Source: an uncultured Actinomycetota bacterium
GTDB taxonomy: Bacteria > Actinomycetota > Thermoleophilia > RBG-16-64-13
NCBI GenBank assembly: GCA_963777945.1
Contig: CAVZSN010000011.1
Coordinates: 164,303 to 228,302, forward strand
Reading direction: 5' to 3'
DNA: 64,000 bases
The translations under genes and the position numbers were made by a program. The notes beneath the pieces were generated by a model. That model ran no database searches and was not told the DNA's origin. It saw only the letters and a program-made list of their open reading frames with translations. Below are positions 6,362-18,722 of this stretch, piece by piece; within the stretch, counting starts at the first letter, position 1, and each line of letters begins with the position of its first letter.

Positions 6362-7670
6362 CTACAGCGCGAGGATCGCGCGGAAGTCGTTGACGTTCGT
6401 CCGGGTCGGGCCGGTCACGAACAGATCGCCTAGGGCCGCAAAGAAGCCGTAGCTGTCGTTGTCGGCGAGCGAACGCCTGGGATCGAGCCCCGTTGCCCTG
6501 GCCTGCGCAAGCGTGTCGGGATGGAGGAACGCGCCGGCATTATCCTCGGTCCCGTCGATGCCGTCGGTGTCGGCCGCCAGGGCATAGACCGGGCAGCCTG
6601 GGAGGCCATCTTCCTCGAGGGCAAGCGCGAGCGCCAGGAGGTACTCTGTGTTGCGGCCTCCGCGCCCCCTGCCGGCGACCGTCACTGTGGTCTCTCCCCC
6701 GGAAAGGACGAGCCGGGGTCCGTGGTCGGGCTGGCGTTCCGCGCTTGGCTCGGACGCCGCGAGAAGGCGCCGGACCACGTGAGCGTGCTCCGCGGCGACA
6801 TCGCGGGCCTCTCCCTGAAGGCCGGCGCCCAAGACCATCGGTTCCATTCCCTCGGCCTCGCGCCGCCGACACGGCCGCCTCGAGAGCGGAAGCGGGCGAG
6901 GCCAACAATTCGAACCGGCTGTGCGCCAGCCGGGGGTCGCCCGGTTTGGGCGTCTCTTCCGCAGCACTCTCGAGGTGCCGGCGGACGGATGCCGGCAGGT
7001 CCACGTCATAGCGTCTGACAACCTCGAGCGCGTCCGCGAAGGTCGACGGGTCGGCCACCGTTGGCCCGGAGGCAATGCTGGCAGGGTCATCACCGGGGAC
7101 GTCGGAGATGGCGAAGGTGATAACCTCCGCGGGCCGGCACGCCAAGGCAAGGCGGCCACCGGCTAGGGCGGAGAGGTGCTTGCGCACGCAGTTGATGTCG
7201 CCGATGGGCGCTCCTGATGCGAGTAGCCGGCGGTTTGTCTCCCGGAGTTCTGCCAGCGTGAGACCACACGCCGGAAGGGTCAGGAGGGCCGAGCCTCCTC
7301 CGCTCAGAAGGACGAGCACCAGGTCCTCTCGGGAAAGACCGCCGACAAGCTCGAGCACGCGTTCCGCGGCTTGCGAACCGGTCGAATCGGGAAGCGGGTG
7401 GCCTGCCTCGATCACCTCGATCCGGCGGCAGGGAAGTCCGTGGCCATAGCGGGTCACCACCAGACCTGAGAGGGGACCCTGCCAGTGCTCATCCACCGCT
7501 CTGCCCATGGCGGCGGCAGCCTTGCCCGCTCCGATCACCACCGTCTTGCCGCGCGGACGGGCGGGAAGACGTCCAGGCAGAAGTTCCTGTGGATCGGCGG
7601 CCGCGACCATCGCCGCGAACAGGCCGGACAGGAAGCCGGCCGGATCCTTCTCTGGTGCCTGGATTATCAT
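6362..7670 (-). CDS. Glycerate kinase (DUF4147/MOFRL family), frameshifted
   Basis: GAGKAAAAM, EAGHPLPD, LLSGGGSAL, SDVPGDDPASIASGPT, SGGETTV, GGRNTE, DTDGIDG, TGPTRTNVNDFR. Confidence 0.92.
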
Positions 7671-7679
7671 GATGGGACC

Positions 7680-8104
7680 ATGGTACATGTGCTGGATGAC
7701 CTCGAGATCCCCGACGAGGAGCTCACCTTCACCACGTCGCGCAGCAGCGGGCCGGGAGGCCAGAACGTCAACAAGCTGAGCACCCGGGTCACGCTGCTCT
7801 TCAACGTGGACGACTCCCCACGACTGTCGGTGGAGCAGCGTGGACTGTTGCGCCTTCATCTCGCGGGACGAATCTCTCGCGCTGGGGTCCTGCGGGTGGT
7901 GTCGCAACGCCACCGCACGCAACTGGCCAACAAGGACGCCGCTGTCGCCCGGTTCGCGGAGCTGCTGCGAGGACGCCCTCGACCGAAAGGCCGGAGCGCA
8001 TCCCGGTGACCGTGCCGCGGAAGGTCACGCAGCGGCGTTTGGAGGAGAAGCGGCGGCGGGGCACCGTGAAGAGGGAGCGGGCGACCCCCGACGTGGACGA
8101 CTAG
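7680..8104 (+). CDS. arfB: Alternative ribosome rescue peptidyl-tRNA hydrolase ArfB (frameshift near 7975)
   Basis: SRSSGPGGQNVNK GGQ motif, SQRHRTQLANK, basic C-terminal tail (QRRLEEKRRRGTVKRER) in the shifted frame. Confidence 0.9.
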
Positions 8105-8184: not shown

Positions 8185-8784
8185 CTACTCCGCAGCGTCG
8201 ACGGCGCGGTCGACGCGGGCGGCCACGACCGCGAACATGTTCCGCCCCAGATCCTCCGAGAGCACCGGCTGGAAGTAGGGCCGTAGCGCGCCGGCCACCT
8301 CCTCCTTGCTGACGCGGATGTCGGCCGGAGGCCCGCCATCCCCGGCCTCGGGATCCTTGCGCCAGTCGACGACCACCAGTCTGCCTGCCGGGCGCAGGGC
8401 GCGGGCGAGCCCGGGCAGGTCTATCTCGCCGCCGGTCTCGTGCCAGACGGAGATGGAGCAGGCCACATCGGCGCTGGCGGAGGTCAGATCAAGATGGGCT
8501 AAATCGCCCACGACCAGACGTACATTCGGTGGCACCCCGCGTGCTCGATAGAAGTCGTGCATCTCCACCTGAAGGTCGAGTGCGTATACCGTGCCGGACG
8601 TAAGTGCGGCGATGAGGTCGGTGTAGAAGCCGACTCCGCTTCCCAGGTCGATCACGTCCTCGCTGCCGGCGAGTGCCAGGAGTCGGATGAGGTCTCGTTC
8701 GCTGAGTTGGGTCTCGAGGCGCCGAGGATCCATAAGCCGCTGCGCCCGGTCGGGGGAGATGGGAGCGTGCTGGTGCATGATCAC
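8185..8784 (-). CDS. Class I SAM-dependent methyltransferase
   Basis: VIDLGSGVGFY motif I, VYALD, LRPAGRLVVVDW. Confidence 0.85.
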   Translation of the reverse strand: MIMHQHAPISPDRAQRLMDPRRLETQLSERDLIRLLALAGSEDVIDLGSGVGFYTDLIAALTSGTVYALDLQVEMHDFYRARGVPPNVRLVVGDLAHLDLTSASADVACSISVWHETGGEIDLPGLARALRPAGRLVVVDWRKDPEAGDGGPPADIRVSKEEVAGALRPYFQPVLSEDLGRNMFAVVAARVDRAVDAAE

Positions 8785-8806
8785 CGGTCCGTGATGTTGG
8801 CGGATT

Positions 8807-10097
8807 CTAGAACTGTGTGGAGCAGAAGGGGGCGATGCCGGTGGAGAACATGGCGTCGGCCATCGCCAGCATGCGAGGGTCCGCGCAGTCGAGTCGGCCG
8901 GCCATGGCGAGATCCGTGAAGCTGACGCCGCCCAGAAACGCGGCCCCCAACGTGGCCACGTCCAGAGAGATATCGACGCGCCGGTCGGTGGGACGACAAT
9001 CGGCTCTGCCGGCCTCGGCTCCCCGGGCTTCGGCCTCTCCGGTCCCGGCTCCCGTCGTCAGCAGGTAACGTCCCGTGCGCGGCGCGGGGAACGCTTCGAC
9101 CACCTCGAAGACCACTTCCCCCGGCGCAGAGTAAGTGCGGGCCGTCAGCGCCCGGGGGATGTCGAGCAGCCGCACGTAGAGGTCGTCCGACACGGCGTTC
9201 ACCGTCAGTCGGCGGGAGTCGGCCAAGAGCCAGCGAAGCGGCTCGTCGACTCGCGCCCTGACCGTAGGAGATGGTCTGGCTGAGGTCGGTCCCGATGATG
9301 TACTGCCAGAGAGCCCGGTAGGCGTCGCGATCACCGGCCAGCAGTTCGACCACCACGACCTCGTTCAAAGGGGTGGAAGCAGCCCACTGCTCTTTGATGC
9401 GGTAGCTCACATATCCGTTGTCGCCTGCTCGCCCGGAGTGGACCGCATGGTACATCCTGGTGGCGCCCTGCCGCTCGAGCGGGGGATCCGAGAGATATCC
9501 GGACCACCACTGGGGCGATCTGGAGACCGCACCAGGCTGGTCGCGGCGCAGAGTCTCAAAGACCGCCGCCATCCGACCCGCGGCCTCTACGCCCGCGGCA
9601 AGGGTGATCTCGCCCGTGGTCCCGTCCGCGGCCGGGGGAACGAGCTGCGCATGCGCCCGCTCGAGTGAGAAGCTCATGGTCGTGCTGGCAGCCCCGTAGC
9701 CGAAGCGCCCGTAGATGGTGGCCTCGGAGGCACCGAGAATGGAGACCGGCTCCTCTCGCTCCATCATGTCGCCCATCTGGGCCCTGAAGAGCGAGCGCAG
9801 GATGCCACGGCGGCGGTGGGTCGGCAGGGTCGCCCCCCAGGTGGCGCCCCCCGCAGGGACCGTTCTGCGGCCGGGGAGGGTCAACTCCATCGAGAACACG
9901 GCGAGCGAACCGACCATCTTGCCGGCATCGTACGCGCAGAGCGCTCGATCGAAGGGAAAGTCGCGGATGAATGCCGCCTCGTCCTCCGGCGTGGACTCCT
10001 CGCCGAAGGTGATGTTCCCCAGTTCGACGATGTCGTGGAACTCTTCTTCTCGGGGTGCGCGGATCTCCACGCCGTCCCCCATCTTTGGACAGGTCAC
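8807..10097 (-). CDS. Eis-like GNAT acetyltransferase with SCP2-like C-terminus (frameshift near 9270)
   Basis: TLPTHRRRGILRSL, LGASEATIYGRFGYG, DDLYVRLLDIPRAL, C-terminal ADAMFST..PFCSTQF. Confidence 0.85.
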
Positions 10098-10104
10098 AGG
10101 GCGT

Positions 10105-13100
10105 CTACCTCAGGAGACAGCCGTTCGCCTGCAGATGGGCCTGCCAGTCGGCCTCACTTGTCTCGCCGCACTTGCGGAGCAGCCTGTCCCACTCGTCGTC
10201 GACCCAGCTCTCAAGCTGCTCCAGGGAGTGCTCGAAGCCGGGTTGGAAGAGGTGGGCGAAGCGACCCTGGCGCTTGAGCCACGGCACCAGCGGCAGCTTG
10301 TAGTGCGGACGGTAGGTGAGCCGGTACTCGCCGTCCTCGTACTCGAACAGCGGCCAATAGCAGGTGTTGACCGCTTCGCGGGCAAGATCGATGCTCTCCG
10401 CGCCGTCCGAGCGCCACCCGCGAGGGCAGGGGGCGATGACATTGAGGAAGGTAGGCCCGTCGATGGAGAGGGCCTTGGCCGCCTTGCGCACCAAGTCACG
10501 AGGATCGTGGGGCGAGGCCTGGGCCACGTATTTGAGGCCGTGCGCGATCATGAGCTCGGTCAGGTTCTTGCGATGCTGCAGCTTGCCGGCCGACTCCTCG
10601 CCCACCGGGCTGGTGGTGGTCCAGGCAGCGATCGGGGTGGCTCCCGAGCGCTGGAAGCCGGTGTTCATGTAGGCGCCGTTGTCGTAGCAGACGTAGAGCA
10701 TCTTGTGGCCGCGCTCCATGGCGCCCGACAGCGATTGGAGGCCGATGTCGTAGGTGCCGCCGTCGCCGCCGAATGCGATGAACTTGACGTTCTCGTCGAT
10801 GACGCCCTTCTTCTTGAGCGCGCGGAACGCGGTCTCGACGCCGCTCAGCGTGGCGGCCGAGTTCTCGAACGCGGTGTGGATGAAGCTGCTCTTCCAGGAC
10901 GTGTAGGGGTAGATGGTGGTGCTGACCTCGAGACAACCGGTCGCCGCGCTCACCACCACCGGGTCGCTGGTGCCCATGAGCACCTGCCGCACCACGACCG
11001 GTGCACCGCAGCCGGCACACATGCGATGGCCGCCCGCCAGCCGGCTGCCCTGCTCGACCAGCCGGAGCCATTCCACGCGGGCCTTCTCGAAGTGGTCGGT
11101 CTCCTTGAGCGCGTCGACGGGGCAGACGTTGACACATTCCCGGCAGAGGATGCAGCGGCTCTCGTCCACCTTGAAAGAGGTGAGAGTGCGTTCGTTGAAG
11201 GTGAGTGCGCCCGTGGGACACGTGCTGACGCAGCGTCCGCAGCTGATGCAGTCGGCCATCTGGAGGGCCTCGCCGTAGGGCGTGTCGACGTTGATGGTGA
11301 AGCCCCTGCCGGTGAAGTCGTAACAGGCCGGGCCCGCCACGTCCCGGCAGACCCGTACGCACCGACCGCACGCGATGCAGCGCTCCATGTTGCGCCGGAT
11401 GAAGGGATGTTCCAGCTGGGGCTCGACCACCCGTACACGGCCGCCCTTCTTGACGAGATCGTTGGTGGTGACGCCGTATTCCACGCCGAGCCTCTGCAGA
11501 TCGCACTCGCCCAGGCTGGGGCACTCGCACTGCAGGCAGCGCTTGGCCTCCTCCTGCGCCGTGGCGAGGCTGTACCCCTTCTCCACTTCCACGTTGGGTG
11601 CAGATAGACGCTTGGCTTTCGCGACCTTGGGCATAGCGGCGCGAGCCTGCGGCTCGGCGCCGGCACCCATCTTGAGCCAGACAGGGTCGCGTTCCGCCAA
11701 GCGGCGTGCGACGGTGGCCAGGGCTTTCTCTCGCCCGAGCTGCTCGAGGTAGGGCAGGCGGGCGTGGGCGGCAAGGTCCTCTTCCAGAGCGGTCAAGTCC
11801 TCTCCGCGCAGCCAGGCGTCGGCAGCCACGGCCGCGCGCTTGCCGCCCGCCACCGCGTGTATGACGGAGCGGGCGCCGCCGAGAGCGTCGCCAGCTACGA
11901 AGAGGCCGGTATGGGAGGTACGCCCTGTGAACCGGTTGATGGTGAGCTGGACGCCGCCGACCTTGAGCGCGGGGCGGCCACGGCCGCCGGGCACCCACCC
12001 GTCCTCCGCGGCCAGGATCACGGTCGCGCCTCTTACGGAGGTCGCCTGCTTCTCGGCCGCCGCCGGGTCGGCTTCGAACTTGAAGATCACGCCCTCCTCA
12101 CGGGCGGCTGCGACCTCGCGCTCGCCCGCGGGCATGGCGTCGGCGCCCGACCGCGACAGCACGGTCACATTCGCGGCGCCTGAGCGGAGCGCAGTACGGG
12201 CGGCATCGACGGCCGTGATGCCGTCTCCGATCACCAGCACCGGACCGCTCAGATGCGCCGGGCGCCCATTACGTTGCTGCCGCAGGAATCCGAGGGCATC
12301 GAGGGTGTCACCGTCGGCGGCCTTTCTCGCATTTCGCGGCGCACTCCGCGGCGCACCGCCGGTGGCCAGGACCACGGCGTCGAAACCGGCGTCGAACAAT
12401 CCCTGAGGGTCGGACTCGTAGCGCATCTTGGAGTCACCGACGAAGCGGACGCCGGCATCCCACAGCGGCTGCAGCTCGGTGTCGAGCACCTTGGCCGGCA
12501 GGCGGAACTCGGGAATGAGGTAGCGCAGTGATCCGCCGGGCTCGGTCTCGGCGTCATAGACCGTGACCTGATGTCCCCGGCCGGCCAGGAACCAGGCAGC
12601 GGACAGGCCGGCGGGTCCCGCGCCCACGACAGCCACCCTCTTGCCGGTCGCGGCGCCCCGGGGCAGGCGGGCTTTGGAGTGGTCCGCCGCCGCCCTGTGC
12701 AGGTCGCAGATGGCGATAGGCTCGTCCACGTCTCCCCGCCGACACACGGGCTCGCAGTAGCGAGGACAGACGCGACCCAGGATGCCGGGGAAGGGCAGTT
12801 CTTCACGCACGACCGCGGCTGCGCCGGTGGTGTCGCCCTCGGCCAGCAGCGCCAGATACCCCGGGATGTCGATGTGGGTGGGGCAGGCGTGGGTGCAGGG
12901 TGCCTCGCAGTAGGCGTTGTGGTCGGACAGATACATCCGGAGGTAGCTTTCACGCCGGGCAGTCACTCGGGGCGTGTGGGTCTGCACGGACATGCTGTCG
13001 GTCACCCAGGTGGTACAGGCCGCCTGCAGTTTGTCGACGCCCTCGACCTCCACCAGGCAGAGGCGACAGCCGCCCCATGCCGCCGTGCCCTCGAGGTGGC

Positions 13101-13300
13101 ACAGCGCGGGGATGTCGATGCCTTCGCGTCGGGCCACATCCAGTACGGTCTCGCCCTGTCTGCGCCGCCAACCGCCGACCGTTGATGGTGATGTTCAGGG
13201 CCGCCGCCGGCGCGGCCGCTGCGGTTGCCGTCGCCGCTGCGGTTGCCGCCCCCGCCGTCGTCGCGGCGCTCGTCGTCCGCTTCCGTCGCGGTGCGCTCAT
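10105..13300 (-). CDS. Fusion: HydA/NuoG-like Fe-S subunit (BfuA) + inserted GltD/NfnB-like FAD/NAD(P) domain + extra 4Fe-4S + 2-oxoacid:ferredoxin oxidoreductase beta subunit
   Basis: One 1010-aa frame plus a short N-terminus after a frameshift near 13160. Motifs: CHLEGTAAWGGCRLC...C (2Fe-2S); SDHNAYCEAPCTHACP; GRVCPRYCEPVC; VVGAGPAGL; CLQCEC..GECDLQ; CIACGRCVRVC; CISCGRCVSTCP; CILCRECVNVCP; then GHRMCAGCG, TGCLEV, GGDGGTYDIG..YDNGAYMNTG (TPP/Mg) and APCPRGW. Confidence 0.9.
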
Positions 13301-15211
13301 CTCCGCCTCCTCCCGGCAGACACGAGCGCTCCCGTGTCGACTCGAACGGCGTCGAACCTGCACGACTGTCGGCAGGCATCACACTGGATGCACAGCCTCT
13401 GGTCGATGACGTGCACCTGCTTGCGCTCCCCGCTCACGGCGCCCGCCGGGCAGGCCAAGGCGCAGGCCCGGCAGCCGGTGCAGGCTTCCTCGTCGATGTG
13501 GTAGCGGATGAGCGGCCGGCACACTTTTGCCGGGCAGCGGTGCTCCTCGACATGGGCCATCACCTCGTCGCGGAAGTAACGCAGGGTCGACAGGACCGGG
13601 TTCGGGGCGCTGCCTCCCAACGCGCACAGCGAGCCTTCGGCCACGTCCTCGGCCAGCGCCTCCAGCAGGCCGATGTCATCCACTGTAGCCAGACCGGCTG
13701 AGATGCGCTCGAGGATCTCGAGCATGCGAGTAGCGCCGACCCGACAGGGTACGCACTTGCCGCAGCTCTCCTCGGAAGTGAACTTGAGGAAGAACTTGGC
13801 GAAGTCGACCATGCACGTGGTGTCGTCGACCACCACCATGCCGCCGGAGCCCATCATGGAGCCGGCAGCCAGCAGGCTTTCGAAATCGATCGGCTCATCG
13901 AGCAGCGAGGCGGGGAGGCAACCACCGGAGGGACCTCCGAGTTGAACGGCCTTGAAATGCCGGCCGGGCAGCATACCTCCGCCGATATCGAAGATCACCT
14001 GGCGCAGCGTCGTGCCCATGGGGACCTCGATGAGACCTCCGTTCACTACCTTGCCGGTGAGCGAGAAGATCTTGGTGCCCTTGCTGGTGGCCGTACCCAT
14101 GGCGGCGAAGGCATCCGCGCCGTGGTTGACGATCCACGGGACGTTGGCGTAGCTCTCCACGTTGTTGAGGTTGGTCGGTTGGCCCCAGAGGCCGTGGGCC
14201 GCCGTGCGGATATGCTTGCCTCGCGGCATGCCCCGCAGTCCCTCGATGGATGCCGTCAAGGCCGTCGACTCACCGCAGACGAACGCGCCGGCGCCCTGGT
14301 TGATGCGGATGTCGAAGTCGAAGCCCGAAGCGAGGATGTTCTCGCCCAGGAGACCGCGCTCCCGCGCCTGGTCCAGGGCAGACCGCAGCCGCTCGACCGC
14401 GAACGGATACTCATGCCGCACGTATACGTACCCGGCCACGGGGCCGTTGTCCGCGCCGATGGCGTATGCCGCGATGATCATGCCCTCGATGACGCTGTGC
14501 GGGTTCCCCTCCAGCACCGAGCGGTCCATGAAGGCGCCCGGATCACCCTCGTCGGCGTTGCAGATGACGTAGTGGACGGCGCCCGGATTGCCGCGCGACG
14601 TACGCCACTTCCTACCCGTCGGGAAACCGGCCCCGCCGCGGCCGCGGAGGCCGCTGCGCTCGATCTCGTCGATGACGGCGACCGGATCGGCGGCGGACAG
14701 CACTTTGGCCAGCGCCGCATACCCCCCGTGGGCCAGGTAGTCGTCGATGGAGAAGGGGTCCACCTTGCCGTTGAGGCTGAGGACCACCCGGCTTTGCAGC
14801 GCATAGAAGGGGATCTCGCGCTCCAGGGCCAGGGGCTCACCGGTCTGAGGATGCTTGTAGAGGAGGCGCTCGACGACGCCGTCGCCGACGATGCTCGTGT
14901 CGATGATCTCGGCGACATCCTTGGCCTGCAACCGGGGATAGAAGATCCCGCGCGGGCGGAGCACCATGATGGGTCCCTGTTCGCAGAAGCCGTGGCAGCC
15001 GGTCTCGATGACGGCTACCCGGTCGGTCAGTCCCCGCTGTTCCAGTCCGGCCTCGACCGCCTTGCGCAGCGCCACCCTGCCGGACGCGTGACATGCGGTG
15101 CCGGCGCAGATGCGGATCTCGGTCCTCGTATCGTCGGCCAGATAGGCGCCGGAGCCGGCGGCGACTGCCGCCTGCAGGGCGGCCGCGATCTTGGCGGCGC
15201 GCGGCGCTCAC
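13297..15211 (-). CDS. HydB/NuoF-like FMN/NAD subunit (BfuB) with N-terminal 2Fe-2S and C-terminal 2x4Fe-4S
   Basis: CAGTAC...CHGFC (first part in the shifted frame), RGRGGAGFPTG, CNADEGDPGAFMDR, GAGAFVCGE, CGKCVPCR..CALG, H..CPAKVC, CTGCRACALACP, CIQCDACRQSC; ATGA overlap with the next gene. Confidence 0.93.
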
Positions 15212-16078
15212 GACCCCGCCTCCTGTTTGCGCAGCCTGCGCACCAACCGGCGGGCCTCGGTGGGGCCCATCCGACCGAACGTCTCGTCGTCGCCCAGGCG
15301 GACCACCGGGGCCAGAGCACAGGCGCCCACGCAGTTGACGGTCTGCAGGGTGAAGAGACCGTCAGGGGTGGTCCCGCCCACGGGGATCTCGAGTTCTTGG
15401 CTGAAGGCCTCCAGCACCAGAGGGGCGCCGGCCACGTGGCAGGCCGTGCCCATGCACACGTCGATGACGTACTTGCCCACCGGCATCAGCCGGAACTGGC
15501 TGTAGAAGCTCGCCACTCCGTAGACCCGAGAGAAATCCAGGTGCATCTCGTCGGCGATGGTCTCGAGAGCGGCCCGCGGCAGGTAGCCGTAGGCTTCCTG
15601 AGTGGCGTGCATCGCTTCGATGAGACCCGACCCCGAGCGGATGCCGGCGATGACCGGATCGAGCAGCTTCATGTCGATGGGAGCCTGGAACGCCGCCGGC
15701 TTCTCGCCCATGACGCAGGCCGAGGCCGCCCCGCAGCTCTCGCCGGGGAGTGTCGCCAGGGCCGCCGCCCGGGCCGCCTCGATGTCGAAGGCCTGCTCGG
15801 GGAATTCGGGGCAGTACTCCAGCTCGATGCAATCGACGGGGCAGGTGCGCTCGCAGAGGGTGCAGGAGTAGCACCTGTAGTCGCCCGTCGGGCTCTTCCA
15901 CCAGGCTCAGCAGACCGGCGCCCTTGGGCTTGCCGACCAGCTGCCGGCGCTCGAAGTCGATGCCCTTGAGGACCTCGTAGAGGGCGGAGCCCCTCGGTCC
16001 TGTCTCGCCGCCGGTCGCGCGTTCTGGGCTGGAGACGCGCGGCCCTCCGCCGTTCCCGTTTCGCTTGCCGTTCGCCAT
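15208..16078 (-). CDS. HydC/NuoE-like 2Fe-2S subunit (BfuC) with N-terminal NuoI-like 4Fe-4S extension (frameshift near 15895)
   Basis: QEAYGYLP, VASFYSQF, VCMGTACH, NCVGACALAP; the same frame extends upstream as YRCYSCTLCERTCPVDCI; GAGG precedes ATG 16078. Confidence 0.85.
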
Positions 16079-16088
16079 TCCGACTACC

Positions 16089-17292
16089 TCAGTCTTTGCG
16101 CAGGTTCAGGTAGCGGCGCTCGGTGGATGCCCGCTTGCCGCCGCGCGCCGTCTCTTCGAGCACCGCGAAGGCCTGCTCGATGTTGTCGGGGAAGATGTCG
16201 CGCCCGCCCAGACCGTAGATGAACGGCAGCACCTGAGGCCGGGGATCGTTGTCGTAGAGCGCGGCCCGGATCTCCAAGAACACCGGACCGCCTTGAGCAC
16301 CGAAAGAGTCGGCCCGGTCCATCACGCCCACGACCTTGACGTGCTTCAGGGCTTCGGCGTAGGCCGCGGCGGGGAAGGGCCGGAACACCCTCACCCGGAC
16401 CATGCCCGCTTTGACCCCCTTGGAGCGCAGCTGGTCCACCACCATCCTGGTGGTGCCTGCCGTGGAGCCGACCACCACGATGGCGATCTCGGCGTCGTCC
16501 AGCCGGTAGGGGTCGAGGAGGCCGTAGTGGCGGCCGGTGAGCTCGGCGTACTCGTCGGCCACGTCGGCGATGACCTGGAAGGCGCGGTCCATGGCCCGGT
16601 TCTGAGCGACCTTGTGCTCGAAATACCAGCCGTGCAGGCCGTCGAACGGTCCAACCGTGACCGGGTTCTTGACGTCGAGCAGGGGGTTGACGGCCTGGTA
16701 GGGGCCGATGAAATCGCGGGCCCTCTCGTCCTCGAGGGTGACCAGGGGTCCGATGGCCCCGCTGATGACGTACCCGTCGTACATGTGCATGGTGGGGGTG
16801 CGCACGTCCATGTGCTCGGCGATGCGGATCGCCTGGAGGCAGTTGTCGTAGGCCTGCTGGTGGTTCTCGCCGTAGAGCTGGATCCAGCCCGTGTCGCGGC
16901 CGCCCATGCTGTCGCTGTGGTCGCAGTGGATGTTGATGGGCCCGGAGAGCGCCCGGTTGACCGTGGTCATGACGATCGGCAGCCGGTAGCTGGCGGCCAC
17001 GATAGAGGAGCTCCCACATCAGGGCGAAGCCCTGCGAGGAGGTGGCCGTCATGGTGCGCGCGCCGCCCGCGGCCGCGCCTATGACCGCGCTCATGGCGGA
17101 GTGCTCCGACTCCACCGTGACGAACTCGGTGTCCACGATGCCGTCGGCCACCATCTGCGCGTAGAGTTGGACCACCTCGGTCTGGGGAGTGATGGGATAG
17201 GCGCATACCACGTCGGGGTTGATCTGGCGCATAGCCTCGGCCACGGCTTCGTTGCCGGTGACCGCCAGGATGGTCTGCTCCTTGCCGGCCAT
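16089..17292 (-). CDS. porA: Pyruvate/2-oxoacid:ferredoxin oxidoreductase alpha subunit (frameshift near 17000)
   Basis: [61 protein letters not shown]. Confidence 0.93.
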
Positions 17293-17296
17293 GCCG

Positions 17297-17637
17297 CTAC
17301 TCCTTCTCCTCGGTCTTCATAGCGATGGCATGCTCCGGGCATTCGGTGGCGCAGATGCCGCAGCCCTTGCAGTGCTTCAGATCGATGCCCACCGCCTTGC
17401 CGTCGCGGATGATGATGGAGGCGTCGGGACAGTAGAAGTAGCAGAGCATGCAGCCCGTGCACTTGGCGGCACGTCGATCTCGGGTACCAGCGACCGCCAG
17501 CCGCCGGTCTCGAACTCCTCGGAGTTGCCGGCGCAGGGGATGGTGGCCCCCAGCTCGTGCTTGTCAGGTCCCCAGGTGGCTATATCGCTCACGTCCCACC
17601 GCGATGGATCCGCAGGGGGCTTGTCCGCCGCGGTCAT
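17297..17637 (-). CDS. porD: 2-oxoacid:ferredoxin oxidoreductase delta subunit (2x4Fe-4S), frameshift near 17470
   Basis: ETGGWRS, then [13 protein letters not shown] and [13 protein letters not shown] in the shifted frame. Confidence 0.9.
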
Positions 17638-18244
17638 TCGCTCTGGACCTCCTCGTAGCTGCGGGTGATGGCCGAGGATGTTGCCCTCGACCACTTTGGG
17701 AGGGAACTTCTTACCGAACTCGTAGCGAAGGAACTCCACCACCTTCTCGATGGGGAAGAGCCCGGTGATGCGCGTGAGCGCGCCCACCATGGGCGTGTTG
17801 GGGATGGGGCGTTTGATGGTCTCGATGGCGATGCGGGTGGCCGCGATGGTGAACAGGCGACCTCGCTTGAGGCCGTACTTCTGGCGGAGTTCGGCGGGAG
17901 ACATCTCGCGAGTTCACCAGGACACCGCGTCGTCGGGGGCGCCCTTGGTCACATCGATCGCGCCGAAGAGCGACGCGTCGAGCACCACCACGATCCTGGG
18001 ATGCTCGATGCCCGCAGTAGATCTGGATGGGGTCGTCGCTCACCCGCGTGAACGCGACGATAGGCGCGCCGGAGCGTTCCGGCCCGTACTCGGGGAAGGC
18101 CTGGAAGTACTTGCCCTGGCCCAAGGCCAGCTCCGCCACCATCTTGGCGGCGGTGACGGCTCCCTGGCCGCCGCGCGCGTGCCAGCGTATCTCGGTAAGG
18201 GCGGATTCGGTCTGCGGCATCTTGTCTGGGTGGGGCGTGGCCAT
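17634..18244 (-). CDS. porC: 2-oxoacid:ferredoxin oxidoreductase gamma subunit (frameshifted)
   Basis: [41 protein letters not shown]. Confidence 0.93.
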
Positions 18245-18532: not shown

Positions 18533-18627
18533 ATACCTTGCTAGGGGAGCGTGTAGCTGAGAGTGTGGCCCGGCCACAGACCCTACGAACCTGATCTGGG
18601 TAATGCCAGCGAAGGGAAGTAACGGTG
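18533..18627 (+). ncRNA. TPP (thi-box) riboswitch
   Basis: GGGGAGC...GCTGAGAG-hairpin-ACCC..GAACCTGATCTGGGTAATGCCAGCGAAGGGAAG; begins just after the extended -10. Confidence 0.95.
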
Positions 18628-18722
18628 ATCCGCCTCAGCCTCGTCGCCGTCTGACGGCGCTCTGACGTCGACCTCGACAGATCGCCGCATCCACCCCCAG
18701 TCGCTCCGAAGAGGAGTGACGC

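What the first reader, a model, noticed from the sequence alone, without database searches (positions are those of the whole stretch)
10105..13300. Four-part fusion protein: NuoG-like scaffold, inserted GltD/NfnB flavin domain, extra ferredoxin motif, PorB
Seen: the His/Cys ligand set of the NuoG-type cluster is split (SDHNAYC ... CLQCEC..GECDLQ) around a complete GltD-like FAD domain with two Rossmann folds. Two 4Fe-4S motifs follow, then a third lone CxxCxxCxxxCP, then a seamless join into PorB (KARVEWLRLVEQGSRLAGGHRMCAGCG). The second Rossmann motif is atypical (GDGITAVD, then LSRS in place of the usual GGGNTAMD and YRR). Known: GltD/NfnB domains bind NADP(H), and NfnB carries a bifurcating FAD. 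Inference: the complex could contain two flavin sites and wire TPP chemistry directly to them. It would be a bacterial functional analogue of eukaryotic pyruvate:NADP+ oxidoreductase with a different architecture.
Basis: partly seen in the sequence, partly recalled or inferred. Interest (0 to 1): 0.85.

Follow-up and report, generated by a model that had tools for sequence, protein, structure and literature searches.

The report
Pyruvate oxidoreductase fused to bifurcating module
The gene joins the thiamine-binding subunit of a pyruvate-type oxidoreductase to the iron-sulfur/flavin input subunit of an electron-bifurcating NAD(P)H/ferredoxin enzyme.

Summary
The four-part fusion is real. More than 100 protein clusters (60-86% identical, 1020-1085 aa) share the full architecture, so it is not an assembly join.

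Residues 1-690 are colinear with NfnA/StnC, the solved "A" subunit of Nfn-type Bfu enzymes. The NuoG-like scaffold with a GltD insert is therefore already known. What is new is that NfnA's dead formate-dehydrogenase-like domain is replaced by one ferredoxin motif plus PorB.

Intact relatives carry the operon PorG-PorD-PorA-BfuC-BfuB-BfuA::PorB. This is a fused version of the "Por-Bfu" class predicted in 2022 and still uncharacterised.

Three refinements:
- The GltD-like NAD(P)H subdomain is specifically decayed. An unfused paralog family keeps it intact.
- BfuB carries the two substitutions that mark the NADP-specific T. kivui HydB.
- The "lone" ferredoxin motif is the C-terminal half of a split NuoI-like domain. 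The other half sits on BfuC.

The window copy has a 1-base frame break near 13153-13159. All six operon genes and at least two flanking genes are also broken, so this is most likely assembly error.

This is a new variant of a known kind, of moderate to high interest.

The parts
10105..13137 (-). Main open frame of the BfuA(NfnA-type)::PorB fusion gene (1010 aa plus stop)
   Evidence: ORF list; translation; Pfam; 100% match to the database entry and more than 100 homologous clusters
13138..13300 (-). True 5' end of the same gene. ATG 13300 forms an ATGA overlap with the BfuB stop. About 49 codons (MSAPRRKR...LNITINGRRLAAQ) lie in another frame, and a 1-base insertion sits within CAGACAG at about 13153-13159.
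   Evidence: DNA alignment to relatives; N-termini of homologs
12958..13137 (-). N-terminal [2Fe-2S] domain (A1; Cys13, 24, 27, 41). The frame break removes its first strand.
   Evidence: Pfam Fer2_4; invariant Cys; alignment to NfnA/StnC
12658..12957 (-). His73/Cys77 (NuoG-type His-cluster half) followed by the Fer4_20 module (Cys81, 85, 124, 128, 132, 144; His147 at the position of the Nfn A7 lysine)
11800..12657 (-). GltD/NfnL-like flavin domain. The FAD Rossmann fold (GAGPAGL, Arg212) is conserved. The NAD(P)H subdomain (res 233-400; GDGITAVD, LSRS) is decayed.
   Evidence: AlphaFold2 pLDDT 85-95 for this domain; Foldseek
11188..11559 (-). EAKRCLQCEC...GEC (second half of the split ligand sets) and the NuoG/HydA-type 2x[4Fe-4S] module (motifs 1 and 2; A3/A4)
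   Evidence: Pfam Fer4_Nqo3; alignment to NfnA/StnC and NuoG
11068..11187 (-). Lone CxxCxxCxxxCP (Cys662, 665, 668, 672), the C-terminal half of a split NuoI-like dicluster domain
   Evidence: Best family is NuoI, profile positions 69-115/121. Both halves are contiguous in P0123. Gene order nuoH-[I'E]-F-[G I'']-nuoJ in L091.
10108..11067 (-). PorB domain. It has the TPP motif GDG...DN..Y.NTG and four Cys for the TPP-proximal [4Fe-4S] cluster (Cys707, 710, 735, 904).
   Evidence: Pfam TPP_enzyme_C; PDB 9bt4_C E=8e-79; NCBIfam PorB; invariant residues
13297..15250 (-). BfuB (NuoF-like). It has a Trx-like domain with 4 Cys, FMN/NAD(P)H site with GESTAL and PRGKHIRT, B2-site Cys/His, and a C-terminal 2x[4Fe-4S] module. 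The 5' end is frame-broken.
15208..16078 (-). BfuC (NuoE-like [2Fe-2S]) with an N-terminal NuoI-like half-motif (RCYSCTLCERTCP, about 15685-15885). Frame-broken.
16084..17292 (-). PorA (frame switch near 17003)
17297..17637 (-). PorD (2x[4Fe-4S]; frame switch near 17440-17467)
   Evidence: NCBIfam on the L001 ortholog
17640..18244 (-). PorG/PorC (gamma subunit; frame switch between 17873 and 18030)

Best explanation
The gene encodes the A subunit of a six-subunit Por-Bfu complex (PorG, PorD, PorA, BfuC, BfuB, BfuA::PorB).

Shown:
- The first 690 residues are an NfnA/StnC-type BfuA, made of a [2Fe-2S] N-domain, an inserted NfnL/GltD-like FAD domain, and NuoG-type [4Fe-4S] clusters.
- The last 320 residues are a complete PorB.
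- The neighbouring BfuB and BfuC carry every sequence signature of the electron-bifurcating BfuBC core.

Inferred mechanism:
- A 2-oxoacid, most likely pyruvate, is oxidised at TPP between PorA and the PorB domain.
- Electrons pass through the PorB-proximal cluster (with or without the PorD clusters) into a two-cluster NuoI-like adaptor. This adaptor is assembled from the lone motif of BfuA and the N-terminal half-motif of BfuC.
- They then run along the BfuA clusters to B1/FMN/C1 in BfuBC.
- There they are split between a pyridine nucleotide at the FMN and ferredoxin at the C-terminal clusters of BfuB. Run in reverse, the complex would make pyruvate from acetyl-CoA and CO2.
- The FMN site is predicted to use NADP(H) rather than NAD(H).
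- The ancestral NADPH site on the NfnL-like domain is redundant and decaying. Its FAD probably remains as a bound cofactor with no substrate of its own.

The frame break in this window is most likely an assembly error.

The confidence given is for the whole statement. The identity of the parts and of the operon alone is about 0.9.
For: Identity:
- PDB sequence hits are 9bov_A 1.5e-115, 8oh5_C 1.7e-101 and 9n5u_A 1.5e-94 over residues 2-650, and PorB 9bt4_C 8e-79 over 699-978.
- Foldseek ranks the same NfnA/StnC chains first.

Operon:
- The order PorG-PorD-PorA-BfuC-BfuB-fusion holds in L001, L090 (same genus) and L092 (another family).

BfuBC core:
- BfuB matches A. mobile HydB 7t2r_B at 1.3e-234 over its full length.
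- It keeps the Trx-like 4-Cys site, B2 ligands Cys/His/Cys/Cys, the AFM and GGPSG motifs, and the C-terminal 2x[4Fe-4S] module.
- Schut 2022 (PMC9304861) and PMC12018979 use these features to separate bifurcating from non-bifurcating homologs.

NADPH-site decay:
- Conservation of the NAD(P)H subdomain is 0.51, against 0.69-0.88 for the other domains, across 48 fused proteins.
- The same subdomain scores 0.86, against 0.79-0.93 elsewhere, in 49 unfused paralogs, where GGGFTAMD and YRRSRKEM are essentially invariant.

NADP-type FMN site:
- All 22 BfuB copies from fused operons that I examined read GESTAL and PRG[KN]H[IV]RT.
- Paralog BfuB reads GEETAL and PPYP.
- The second Glu of GEETAL is Tsi NfnB Glu-286, which 'ensures selectivity for NADH over NADPH' (PMC12018979).
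- NADP-specific T. kivui HydB (8A6T) reads GESTAL...PPR340T, and Arg340 contacts NADP+ (PMC10021017).

Split NuoI-like adaptor:
- The two halves hit complementary parts of the NuoI profile, positions 21-62 and 69-115. When concatenated they give one colinear match of 75 bits.
- Both halves are contiguous in front of PorB in P0123.
- In L091 the E-F-G cassette sits between nuoH and nuoJ, with the NuoI halves at its two ends.
- The BfuC half is present in all 17 fused loci whose flank reaches it.

Assembly error:
- All six operon genes and at least two flanking genes show frame switches.
- The genome scores 59% complete in 11 long contigs.
Against: - No biochemistry exists for any Por-Bfu. The electron path, the NADP preference and bifurcation itself are inferences from sequence.
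- At about -500 mV, pyruvate can reduce both NADP+ and ferredoxin without bifurcation, so the energetic rationale is unclear. Schut 2022 says the same.
- The window's own NfnL domain still has GxGxxA and one Arg (SRS), so residual NAD(P)H binding cannot be excluded.
- PorD is still encoded. The NuoI-like adaptor and PorD may therefore be alternative rather than serial routes.
- The AlphaFold2 model is poor (pLDDT below 50) across the Fe-S and junction regions, so no cluster distances could be checked.
- POR subunits score below NCBIfam equivalog cut-offs, so the 2-oxoacid is not certain.
Confidence: 0.55

Rival explanations
1. NADP(H) binds the GltD/NfnB-like domain of the fusion, whose FAD (possibly bifurcating) is the exit for TPP-derived electrons. 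The result would be a direct pyruvate:NADP+ oxidoreductase analogous to eukaryotic PNO.
For: - The domain is a full GltD/NfnL fold with conserved FAD-binding residues.
- The window protein keeps GxGxxA and one Arg of YRR.
- In NfnABC this domain does bind NADPH (PMC10482914).
Against: - The NAD(P)H subdomain is the least conserved part of the family.
- The Gly-rich motif varies (GDG, GDS, GGS, GGN, GCN, GAD and others), and YRR is replaced by almost anything.
- Paralogs keep both motifs invariant.
- In solved Nfn-Bfu enzymes this FAD is explicitly non-bifurcating.
Confidence: 0.12
2. A non-bifurcating, linear pyruvate:NADP+ (or NAD+) oxidoreductase. Electrons simply run from TPP through the cluster chain to the BfuB FMN. 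The extra BfuB/BfuC clusters are structural leftovers, and ferredoxin is not a substrate.
For: - Pyruvate oxidation is low-potential enough to reduce NAD(P)+ directly (Table 1 of PMC9304861).
- The FMN pocket is NADP-type.
- The fusion removes the need for free ferredoxin.
Against: - All features that are absent from non-bifurcating NuoF/FdsB/HoxF homologs are retained under strong conservation. These are the B2 His/Cys, the Trx-like domain, the C-terminal 2x[4Fe-4S] module and the AFM motif.
- The related Wor-Bfu is strictly bifurcating despite a low-potential donor (PMC9304861).
Confidence: 0.2
3. The same complex acting on a 2-oxoacid other than pyruvate, such as 2-oxoisovalerate, an aryl-glyoxylate or oxalate.
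For: - The PorA, PorB, PorC and PorD-type subunits all score below the NCBIfam equivalog cut-offs.
- Weaker hits include VorB-type, oxalate oxidoreductase and phenylglyoxylate dehydrogenase PadI/E/F/G.
Against: - The best-scoring family for every subunit is the pyruvate synthase/POR family.
- The best solved relative of the PorB part is a pyruvate:ferredoxin oxidoreductase beta subunit.
Confidence: 0.2
4. The window copy is a decaying pseudogene or pseudo-operon rather than a functional gene with sequencing errors.
For: - At least one frame switch occurs in each of the six operon genes.
- Reads could not be checked.
Against: - Unrelated flanking genes are broken too. DUF4147 and MOFRL lie in different frames, as do GNAT and SCP2_2.
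- Protein identity to relatives stays at 81-95% with no in-frame stops.
- The genome scores only 59% complete despite 11 long contigs. This pattern fits an indel-rich long-read assembly.
- Orthologs are intact in same-genus genomes.
Confidence: 0.07

Closest known systems
NfnA / StnC, the A subunit of Nfn-type Bfu transhydrogenases (C. saccharolyticus 9BOV/9BP5, S. ovata 8OH5/8OH9, T. sibiricus 9N5U/9N5V)
   Same: - Colinear over about 650 residues (30-35% identity).
- Shares the [2Fe-2S] N-domain, the His...Cys motif followed by the inserted NfnL/GltD-like FAD domain, the EAxRCLxCxC motif and the NuoG-type dicluster module.
- Partners with Bfu-type B and C subunits.
   Different: - The C-terminal Fdh-like domain is replaced by a NuoI-like half-motif plus PorB.
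- The A7 ligand Lys, 'conserved in all NfnABC', is His147 here, with an invariant Cys144.
- The NADPH motifs GGGNTAMD and YRR are degraded.
- The partner BfuB lacks the NADH-selective Glu.
Por-Bfu, a predicted and uncharacterised class of the BfuABC family (Schut et al. 2022, PMC9304861; Dehalococcoides and syntrophic Proteobacteria)
   Same: - POR subunits and BfuABC are encoded in one operon.
- The same proposed third substrate (pyruvate).
   Different: - The published class was described as seven separate subunits with a short BfuA.
- Here BfuA is Nfn-type and covalently fused to PorB.
- BfuC carries a NuoI-like extension.
- The phylum, Actinomycetota, is not mentioned in the main text of that survey.
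T. kivui HydABC (8A6T), the NADP+-specific electron-bifurcating [FeFe]-hydrogenase
   Same: BfuB shares GESTAL (Ser in place of the NADH-selective Glu) and the Arg that aligns with Arg340, which contacts NADP+.
   Different: The third substrate is H2 at an H-cluster. There is no POR and no NfnL domain.
Complex-I-linked paralog cassette in the same class (L091, L093): nuoH-[NuoI-N half::NuoE]-[Bfu-type NuoF]-[NuoG::NfnL::NuoI-C half]-nuoJKLMN. I read this as comparable to the 'Nuo-Bfu' type of Schut 2022.
   Same: - The same three-gene cassette, with the NuoI halves at both ends.
- BfuA identity is about 40-45% and BfuB identity is 57%.
- The same ICxLHR motif.
   Different: - The paralog ends after the NuoI half, with no PorB.
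- It keeps an invariant NADPH site.
- Its BfuB is NADH-type (GEETAL, PPYP).
- It is embedded in a nuo operon.
Phenylglyoxylate:NAD+ oxidoreductase PadEFGHI (NCBIfam NF045762-NF045766)
   Same: - A 2-oxoacid:acceptor oxidoreductase whose name and NCBIfam description link it to NADH rather than free ferredoxin.
- PadI (beta subunit) also has an Fe-S extension in front of the PorB fold. The profile matches residues 666-980.
   Different: - Scores are far below the cut-off (232 against 700 bits).
- As I recall, without checking here, its flavoprotein is a separate subunit and it has no NuoE/NuoF-type core.
Eukaryotic pyruvate:NADP+ oxidoreductase (Euglena, Cryptosporidium). From my own knowledge, not tested here.
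   Same: Possible functional analogy: TPP-dependent pyruvate oxidation hard-wired to NADP+ by gene fusion.
   Different: - PNO is a single-chain PFOR fused to a cytochrome-P450-reductase-like FMN/FAD domain.
- No such domain is present here, and there is no homology in the NADP module.

Membership tests
BfuABC family (electron-bifurcating BfuBC core) | BfuB has an N-terminal thioredoxin-like domain with the B5-site cysteines | tested here: met
   ICAGTAC...TGCHGFC is present in the window and in L001. It aligns to 7t2r_B over the full length.
BfuABC family (electron-bifurcating BfuBC core) | B2-site ligands, including the His absent from non-bifurcating homologs (A. mobile C438, H525, C531, C536) | tested here: met
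   DDTTC...AHVEEHRCPAKVC in the window. The alignment positions were checked against 7t2r_B numbering. The fifth ligand, C476, is Ser here; it is Thr in two thirds of BfuB sequences.
BfuABC family (electron-bifurcating BfuBC core) | C-terminal 2x[4Fe-4S] ferredoxin-like domain on BfuB (B3, B4) | tested here: met
   Pfam Fer4 twice at residues 526-577 of P0001; aligned to HydB and NfnB
BfuABC family (electron-bifurcating BfuBC core) | AFM motif, the Phe of the GAGAF loop and the GGPSG loop around FMN | tested here: met
   DPGAFMDRS, GAGAFVCGE and QLGGPSGGC in the window BfuB. The motif definitions come from PMC12018979.
BfuABC family (electron-bifurcating BfuBC core) | BfuC (NuoE-like) with the C1 [2Fe-2S] cluster | tested here: met
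   PF01257 / NuoE family match at residues 143-282 of the L001 ortholog, with four Cys. The window copy is 87-94% identical but frame-broken.
BfuABC family (electron-bifurcating BfuBC core) | Tightly coupled reduction of NAD(P)+ and ferredoxin by a third substrate | not testable with these tools
   Needs anaerobic enzymology.
Nfn-Bfu (NfnABC / StnABC transhydrogenase) | BfuA with an inserted NfnL/GltD-like FAD domain | tested here: met
Nfn-Bfu (NfnABC / StnABC transhydrogenase) | Functional NADPH site on that domain (GGGNTAMD, YRR) | tested here: not met
   The window reads GDGITAVD and SRS. Both motifs vary freely across the family and subdomain conservation is 0.51. Paralogs keep GGGFTAMD and YRR invariant.
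Nfn-Bfu (NfnABC / StnABC transhydrogenase) | Lys ligand of the A7 cluster (conserved in all NfnABC) | tested here: not met
   The position aligned with Sov K170, Tsi K165 and the Csac Lys is His147, with an invariant Cys144 three residues before it.
Nfn-Bfu (NfnABC / StnABC transhydrogenase) | NADH-selective Glu in BfuB (Tsi Glu-286) | tested here: not met
   Ser in all fused-operon BfuB copies (GESTAL)
Nfn-Bfu (NfnABC / StnABC transhydrogenase) | C-terminal Fdh/NuoG-like domain on the A subunit | tested here: not met
   The NfnA alignment ends at about residue 650-675. PorB follows instead.
Por-Bfu (predicted class, Schut 2022) | POR subunits and BfuABC genes in one operon forming one enzyme | tested here: met
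   Operon order. The covalent BfuA::PorB fusion shows one physical complex.
Por-Bfu (predicted class, Schut 2022) | Seven separate subunits (A-G) with a short BfuA | tested here: not met
   There are six genes, BfuA is Nfn-type, and it is fused to PorB. The unfused form is seen in L020.
2-oxoacid:ferredoxin oxidoreductase beta subunit (PorB) | TPP-binding GDG...N motif and four Cys for the proximal [4Fe-4S] cluster | tested here: met
   GGDGGTYD...YDNGAYMNTG, and Cys707, 710, 735 and 904 are invariant. Hits are 9bt4_C at 8e-79 and NCBIfam PorB at 350 bits, under the 405 cut-off.
Eukaryotic PNO | PFOR fused to a CPR-like flavodoxin/FNR NADPH module | tested here: not met
   No flavodoxin or FNR-type domain appears in the listed Pfam or NCBIfam hits.

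The most novel reading that the evidence does not exclude
Soil and peat Actinomycetota took the NADH-input cassette of a Bfu-type complex I, together with its split NuoI connector, and plugged it onto pyruvate:ferredoxin oxidoreductase instead of the quinone module.

They then retuned the FMN site from NADH to NADPH and let the ancestral NADPH/FAD site decay.

The product would be a ferredoxin-sparing, electron-bifurcating or confurcating pyruvate:NADP+/ferredoxin oxidoreductase. In organisms with the Wood-Ljungdahl pathway it could run backwards as an NADPH-assisted pyruvate synthase.
Probability: 0.35. Interest if true: 0.78.

Novelty: new variant of a known kind. Interest (0 to 1): 0.6.

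Why it matters
Por-Bfu enzymes were only predicted from gene neighbourhoods in 2022, and none has been purified. A covalent BfuA::PorB fusion is the strongest genomic evidence that POR and the bifurcating core form one machine.

It also identifies an abundant family, in uncultured soil and peat Actinomycetota, from which such an enzyme could be expressed.

Three details give testable handles:
- Nucleotide specificity in Bfu enzymes. The Glu-to-Ser and Phe-to-Arg pair recurs independently of T. kivui HydB.
- What happens to a substrate site made redundant by domain accretion.
- How a ferredoxin-like connector (NuoI) can be split across two subunits and reused as a docking adaptor.

If the enzyme links pyruvate/acetyl-CoA to NADPH and ferredoxin, it changes redox and carbon-fixation budgets inferred for these lineages. 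Many of them encode acetyl-CoA synthase.

Tried and rejected
- Assembly join or chimera: rejected. The same fusion occurs in more than 100 clusters and across the genus, family and class.
- Programmed frameshift at 13153-13159: rejected. Relatives have a plain open frame with six bases there, and frame breaks are everywhere in this assembly.
- AlphaFold2 of the fusion, to measure cluster spacing and find the partner Cys: mean pLDDT was 63, below 50 over residues 537-726 and parts of PorB. The tool returns no coordinates, so the model was unusable for that purpose. Foldseek only re-confirmed NfnA/StnC, NfnL, GltD and DPD.
- Co-occurrence of the fusion with acetyl-CoA synthase among relatives: no clean correlation.
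- Using the canonical NfnA-like gene of G001 (L089/L094) as a control for a BfuC without the NuoI half: uninformative, because no BfuB or BfuC lies next to it.
- Literature search for PadH/PadI: swamped by unrelated PADI papers.
- The main text and the one held supplementary file of Schut 2022 do not mention Actinobacteria.
- Merino 2020 (PMC7325909) lists por, nuo and gltD genes in figure legends for actinobacterial Wood-Ljungdahl gene neighbourhoods. It does not interpret them as one enzyme.

Full report
**What is there**

The feature lies on the minus strand. ORF 10105-13137 (1010 aa) carries, in order, Fer2_4, Fer4_20, Pyr_redox_2, Fer4_Nqo3, Fer4 and TPP_enzyme_C.

The ATG at 13300 forms an ATGA overlap with the stop of the upstream NuoF-like gene and opens ...LNITINGRRLAAQ, the normal first strand of the [2Fe-2S] domain.

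The assembly then switches frame by one base inside CAGACAG (about 13153-13159), where relatives have six bases.

The break is not special to this gene:
- Against the intact operon of a relative (L001), all six genes of the window's operon show at least one frame switch.
- Two unrelated downstream genes are split the same way. DUF4147 and MOFRL lie in different frames, as do GNAT and SCP2_2.
- The genome scores only 59% complete although it sits in 11 long contigs.

I read this as indel error of a long-read assembly.

**Is the fusion real**

Yes.
- A search of 5.8 billion proteins returned the fused architecture in the 120 best clusters. Nearly all full-length ones are 1020-1085 aa at 60-86% identity.
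- In GTDB species representatives, full-length matches come from Thermoleophilia and other Actinomycetota MAGs from soil, bog, palsa and permafrost.
- All eight same-genus genomes have it, intact in six and in pieces in two. Many genera of the family have it, as do two further genomes (one genus) of another family of the class.

**What the parts are**

Residues 2-650 align colinearly with the A subunit of Nfn-type Bfu transhydrogenases. The hits are C. saccharolyticus NfnA (9bov_A, 1.5e-115), S. ovata StnC (8oh5_C, 1.7e-101) and T. sibiricus NfnA (9n5u_A, 1.5e-94). Residues 699-978 align with a pyruvate:ferredoxin oxidoreductase beta subunit (9bt4_C, 8e-79).

A Foldseek search with an AlphaFold2 model puts the same NfnA/StnC chains first.

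The "NuoG-like scaffold with an inserted GltD domain" is therefore a known, structurally solved arrangement (PMC10482914, PMC11829005, PMC12018979).

- His73/Cys77 before the insert and Cys539/Cys545 after it make one four-ligand set.
- Cys81, 85, 124, 128, 132, 144, 534 and 537 give eight ligands for the two NfnL-type clusters.

The count is my inference and was not checked against coordinates.

The new element is the C-terminus. The catalytically dead Fdh-like domain of NfnA is replaced by one CxxCxxCxxxCP motif and a complete PorB. That PorB has the TPP motif and the four invariant cysteines of the TPP-proximal cluster.

**The operon**

In intact relatives the order is PorG, PorD, PorA, BfuC (285 aa), BfuB (649 aa), BfuA::PorB.

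BfuB is a full-length homolog of proven bifurcating B subunits (A. mobile HydB 7t2r_B, 1.3e-234). It keeps the Trx-like four-Cys site, the B2 Cys/His/Cys/Cys set, the AFM and GGPSG motifs and the C-terminal 2x[4Fe-4S] module. The literature uses these features to separate bifurcating from non-bifurcating NuoF homologs.

This is a member of the "Por-Bfu" class that Schut et al. 2022 predicted from Dehalococcoides-type operons and that is still uncharacterised. That class was described with seven separate subunits. I found:
- one unfused example in a Nitrospirota MAG (L020);
- a second fused form without the flavin insert in a Caldilineae MAG (L018).

**The atypical Rossmann motif**

Across 48 fused proteins the NAD(P)H subdomain (res 233-400) has mean conservation 0.51. 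The other domains score 0.69-0.88. The Gly-rich motif varies (GDG, GDS, GGS, GGN, GCN, GAD and others), and the YRR position is almost free.

As a control I aligned 49 unfused paralogs of about 825 aa from the same lineages at similar divergence. There the same subdomain scores 0.86 (others 0.79-0.93). In the control, GGGFTAMD...YRRSRKEM is essentially invariant.

The FAD-binding parts stay conserved in both sets. The constraint on nicotinamide binding has therefore been specifically relaxed in the PorB-fused family.

The Lys ligand of cluster A7, "conserved in all NfnABC", is His147 here with an invariant Cys144. The paralogs share this feature.

**A compensating change in BfuB**

I followed a lead from another first-reader note (e1-5228929) and compared the FMN pocket.

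| Source | Motifs |
|---|---|
| All 22 fused-operon BfuB copies, window included | GESTAL and PRG[KN]H[IV]RT |
| Paralog cassette | GEETAL and PRVRPPYP |

- The second Glu of GEETAL is T. sibiricus NfnB Glu-286. [quoted passage not shown] I checked the numbering in the alignment.
- The only NADP-specific Bfu enzyme with a structure, T. kivui HydABC (8A6T), reads GESTAL...PRVRPPR340T. Arg340 is named as a contact of bound NADP+ (PMC10021017).
- The Arg of HIRT aligns exactly with Arg340.
- The four NAD-linked B subunits whose alignments I inspected have Glu and Phe/Tyr at these two positions.

I therefore predict that the FMN site of this complex uses NADP(H).

**The lone ferredoxin motif**

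Its partner is most likely on another subunit. BfuC has a 140-residue N-terminal extension with its own single CxxCxxCxxxCP.
- Scanned alone, the BfuC piece hits NuoI best, at profile positions 21-62. The BfuA piece also hits NuoI best, at positions 69-115.
- Joined artificially, they give one colinear NuoI match of 75 bits.
- In a paralogous PorB of Thermoleophilia (P0123, L015) both halves are contiguous in front of PorB.
- In L091 the paralog cassette sits exactly where nuoI belongs. The order is nuoH, [NuoI-N half::NuoE], NuoF, [NuoG::NfnL::NuoI-C half], nuoJ, K, L, M, N. In L093 the cassette likewise follows nuoH directly.
- The BfuC half is present in all 17 fused loci whose flank reaches it.

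This points to a two-cluster adaptor built from two chains. In complex I the equivalent subunit links NuoG to the quinone module. Here it would link BfuA to the POR clusters.

**Mechanism proposed**

- Shown: domain identities, operon, cofactor-binding motifs and the conservation patterns.
- Inferred: electrons from 2-oxoacid oxidation at TPP pass through the PorB cluster (and possibly PorD) to the split NuoI-like pair. From there they run along A4/A3/A2/A1 to B1/FMN/C1, where they are divided between NADP+ and ferredoxin, or the reverse.
- The NfnL FAD sits on a side branch with a decaying substrate site.
- The own genome encodes acetyl-CoA synthase and no haem-copper oxidase. A reverse, pyruvate-synthase role is therefore conceivable, but presence of the fusion and of ACS do not track each other among relatives.

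**Weak points**

- There is no biochemistry for any Por-Bfu.
- The energetic need for bifurcation with a -500 mV donor is unclear.
- The 2-oxoacid is not certain, because scores fall under the NCBIfam equivalog cut-offs.
- The structure model was too poor in the Fe-S regions to test distances.

**Comparison and verdict**

The closest known are NfnA/StnC (same fold, different C-terminus and lost Nfn-specific residues), predicted Por-Bfu (same logic, different architecture), T. kivui HydB (same nucleotide-pocket changes) and the complex-I-linked paralog cassette.

It is not an Nfn enzyme, because four defining features were tested and not met. It is not related to eukaryotic PNO.

Earlier notes of this scan describe the same family in other genomes. 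I treated them as leads and re-derived each point used here.

Verdict: a real, conserved, uncharacterised new variant of a known kind.

Noticed in passing
window 18533-18634 (+): A TPP riboswitch (RF00059, 67.7 bits) lies about 290 bp upstream of the POR-Bfu operon and reads in the opposite direction. A TPP-dependent enzyme operon therefore sits back to back with a probable thiamine supply or uptake operon. L001 has a thiamine pyrophosphokinase gene in the same position.
   Followed up: partly
window 8781-10097 (-) and 6362-7922 (-): An Eis-like GNAT gene (Acetyltransf_9/17 in one frame, SCP2_2 in another) and a glycerate-kinase-like gene (DUF4147 in one frame, MOFRL in another) are both frame-broken. 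The GNAT gene is absent from the same position in L001, where a methyltransferase directly follows the fusion gene.
   Followed up: partly
L091 (G026:C1:668000-687000); L093 (G034:C35): A complex I operon in which a nuoE-F-G cassette is inserted inside nuoI. The N-half of NuoI is fused to NuoE and the C-half to a NuoG that carries an intact NfnL/NADPH domain. NuoF is Bfu-type. The whole L091 order is nuoH-[I'E]-F-[G I'']-nuoJKLMN.
   Followed up: partly
L015:8839-10311 (+), also L016 and L017: A 490-aa PorB homolog with a complete NuoI-like dicluster domain at its N-terminus. No PorA, PorD or PorG was detectable within 9 kb. Its neighbours are DUF3786 and an NfnAB-like pair (DHODB_Fe-S_bind protein plus a 604-aa GltD-like protein). 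Its function is unexplained.
   Followed up: partly
L018:1022-2494 (Caldilineae MAG JBBIJG010000122): A second kind of BfuA::PorB fusion that lacks the NfnL/GltD insert (the match covers residues 36-123 and then 578-1035). Fusion to PorB and presence of the flavin domain are therefore separable.
   Followed up: no
L020:2122-10281 (Nitrospirae JdFR-85): An unfused Por-Bfu operon (BfuC-BfuB-FeS protein-short BfuA-PorG-PorD-PorA-PorB). Its BfuB also lacks the NADH-selective Glu (GEATAL) and has Arg in place of Phe (PPRV). An NADP-type pocket may be general to Por-Bfu.
   Followed up: no
L042 (CAVQOO010000064, labelled Bryobacteraceae): A contig with an 89% identical copy of this actinobacterial operon sits in a MAG labelled Acidobacteriota. 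This is probably a binning or labelling error.
   Followed up: no
G000:C4:257680-258105; whole genome: The window's genome encodes acetyl-CoA synthase (PF03598, 147 bits). It has no haem-copper oxidase hit and many polyferredoxin-like genes, which suggests an anaerobic, Wood-Ljungdahl-capable lifestyle. 13 of the 25 genomes searched, the window's own included, have ACS.
   Followed up: partly
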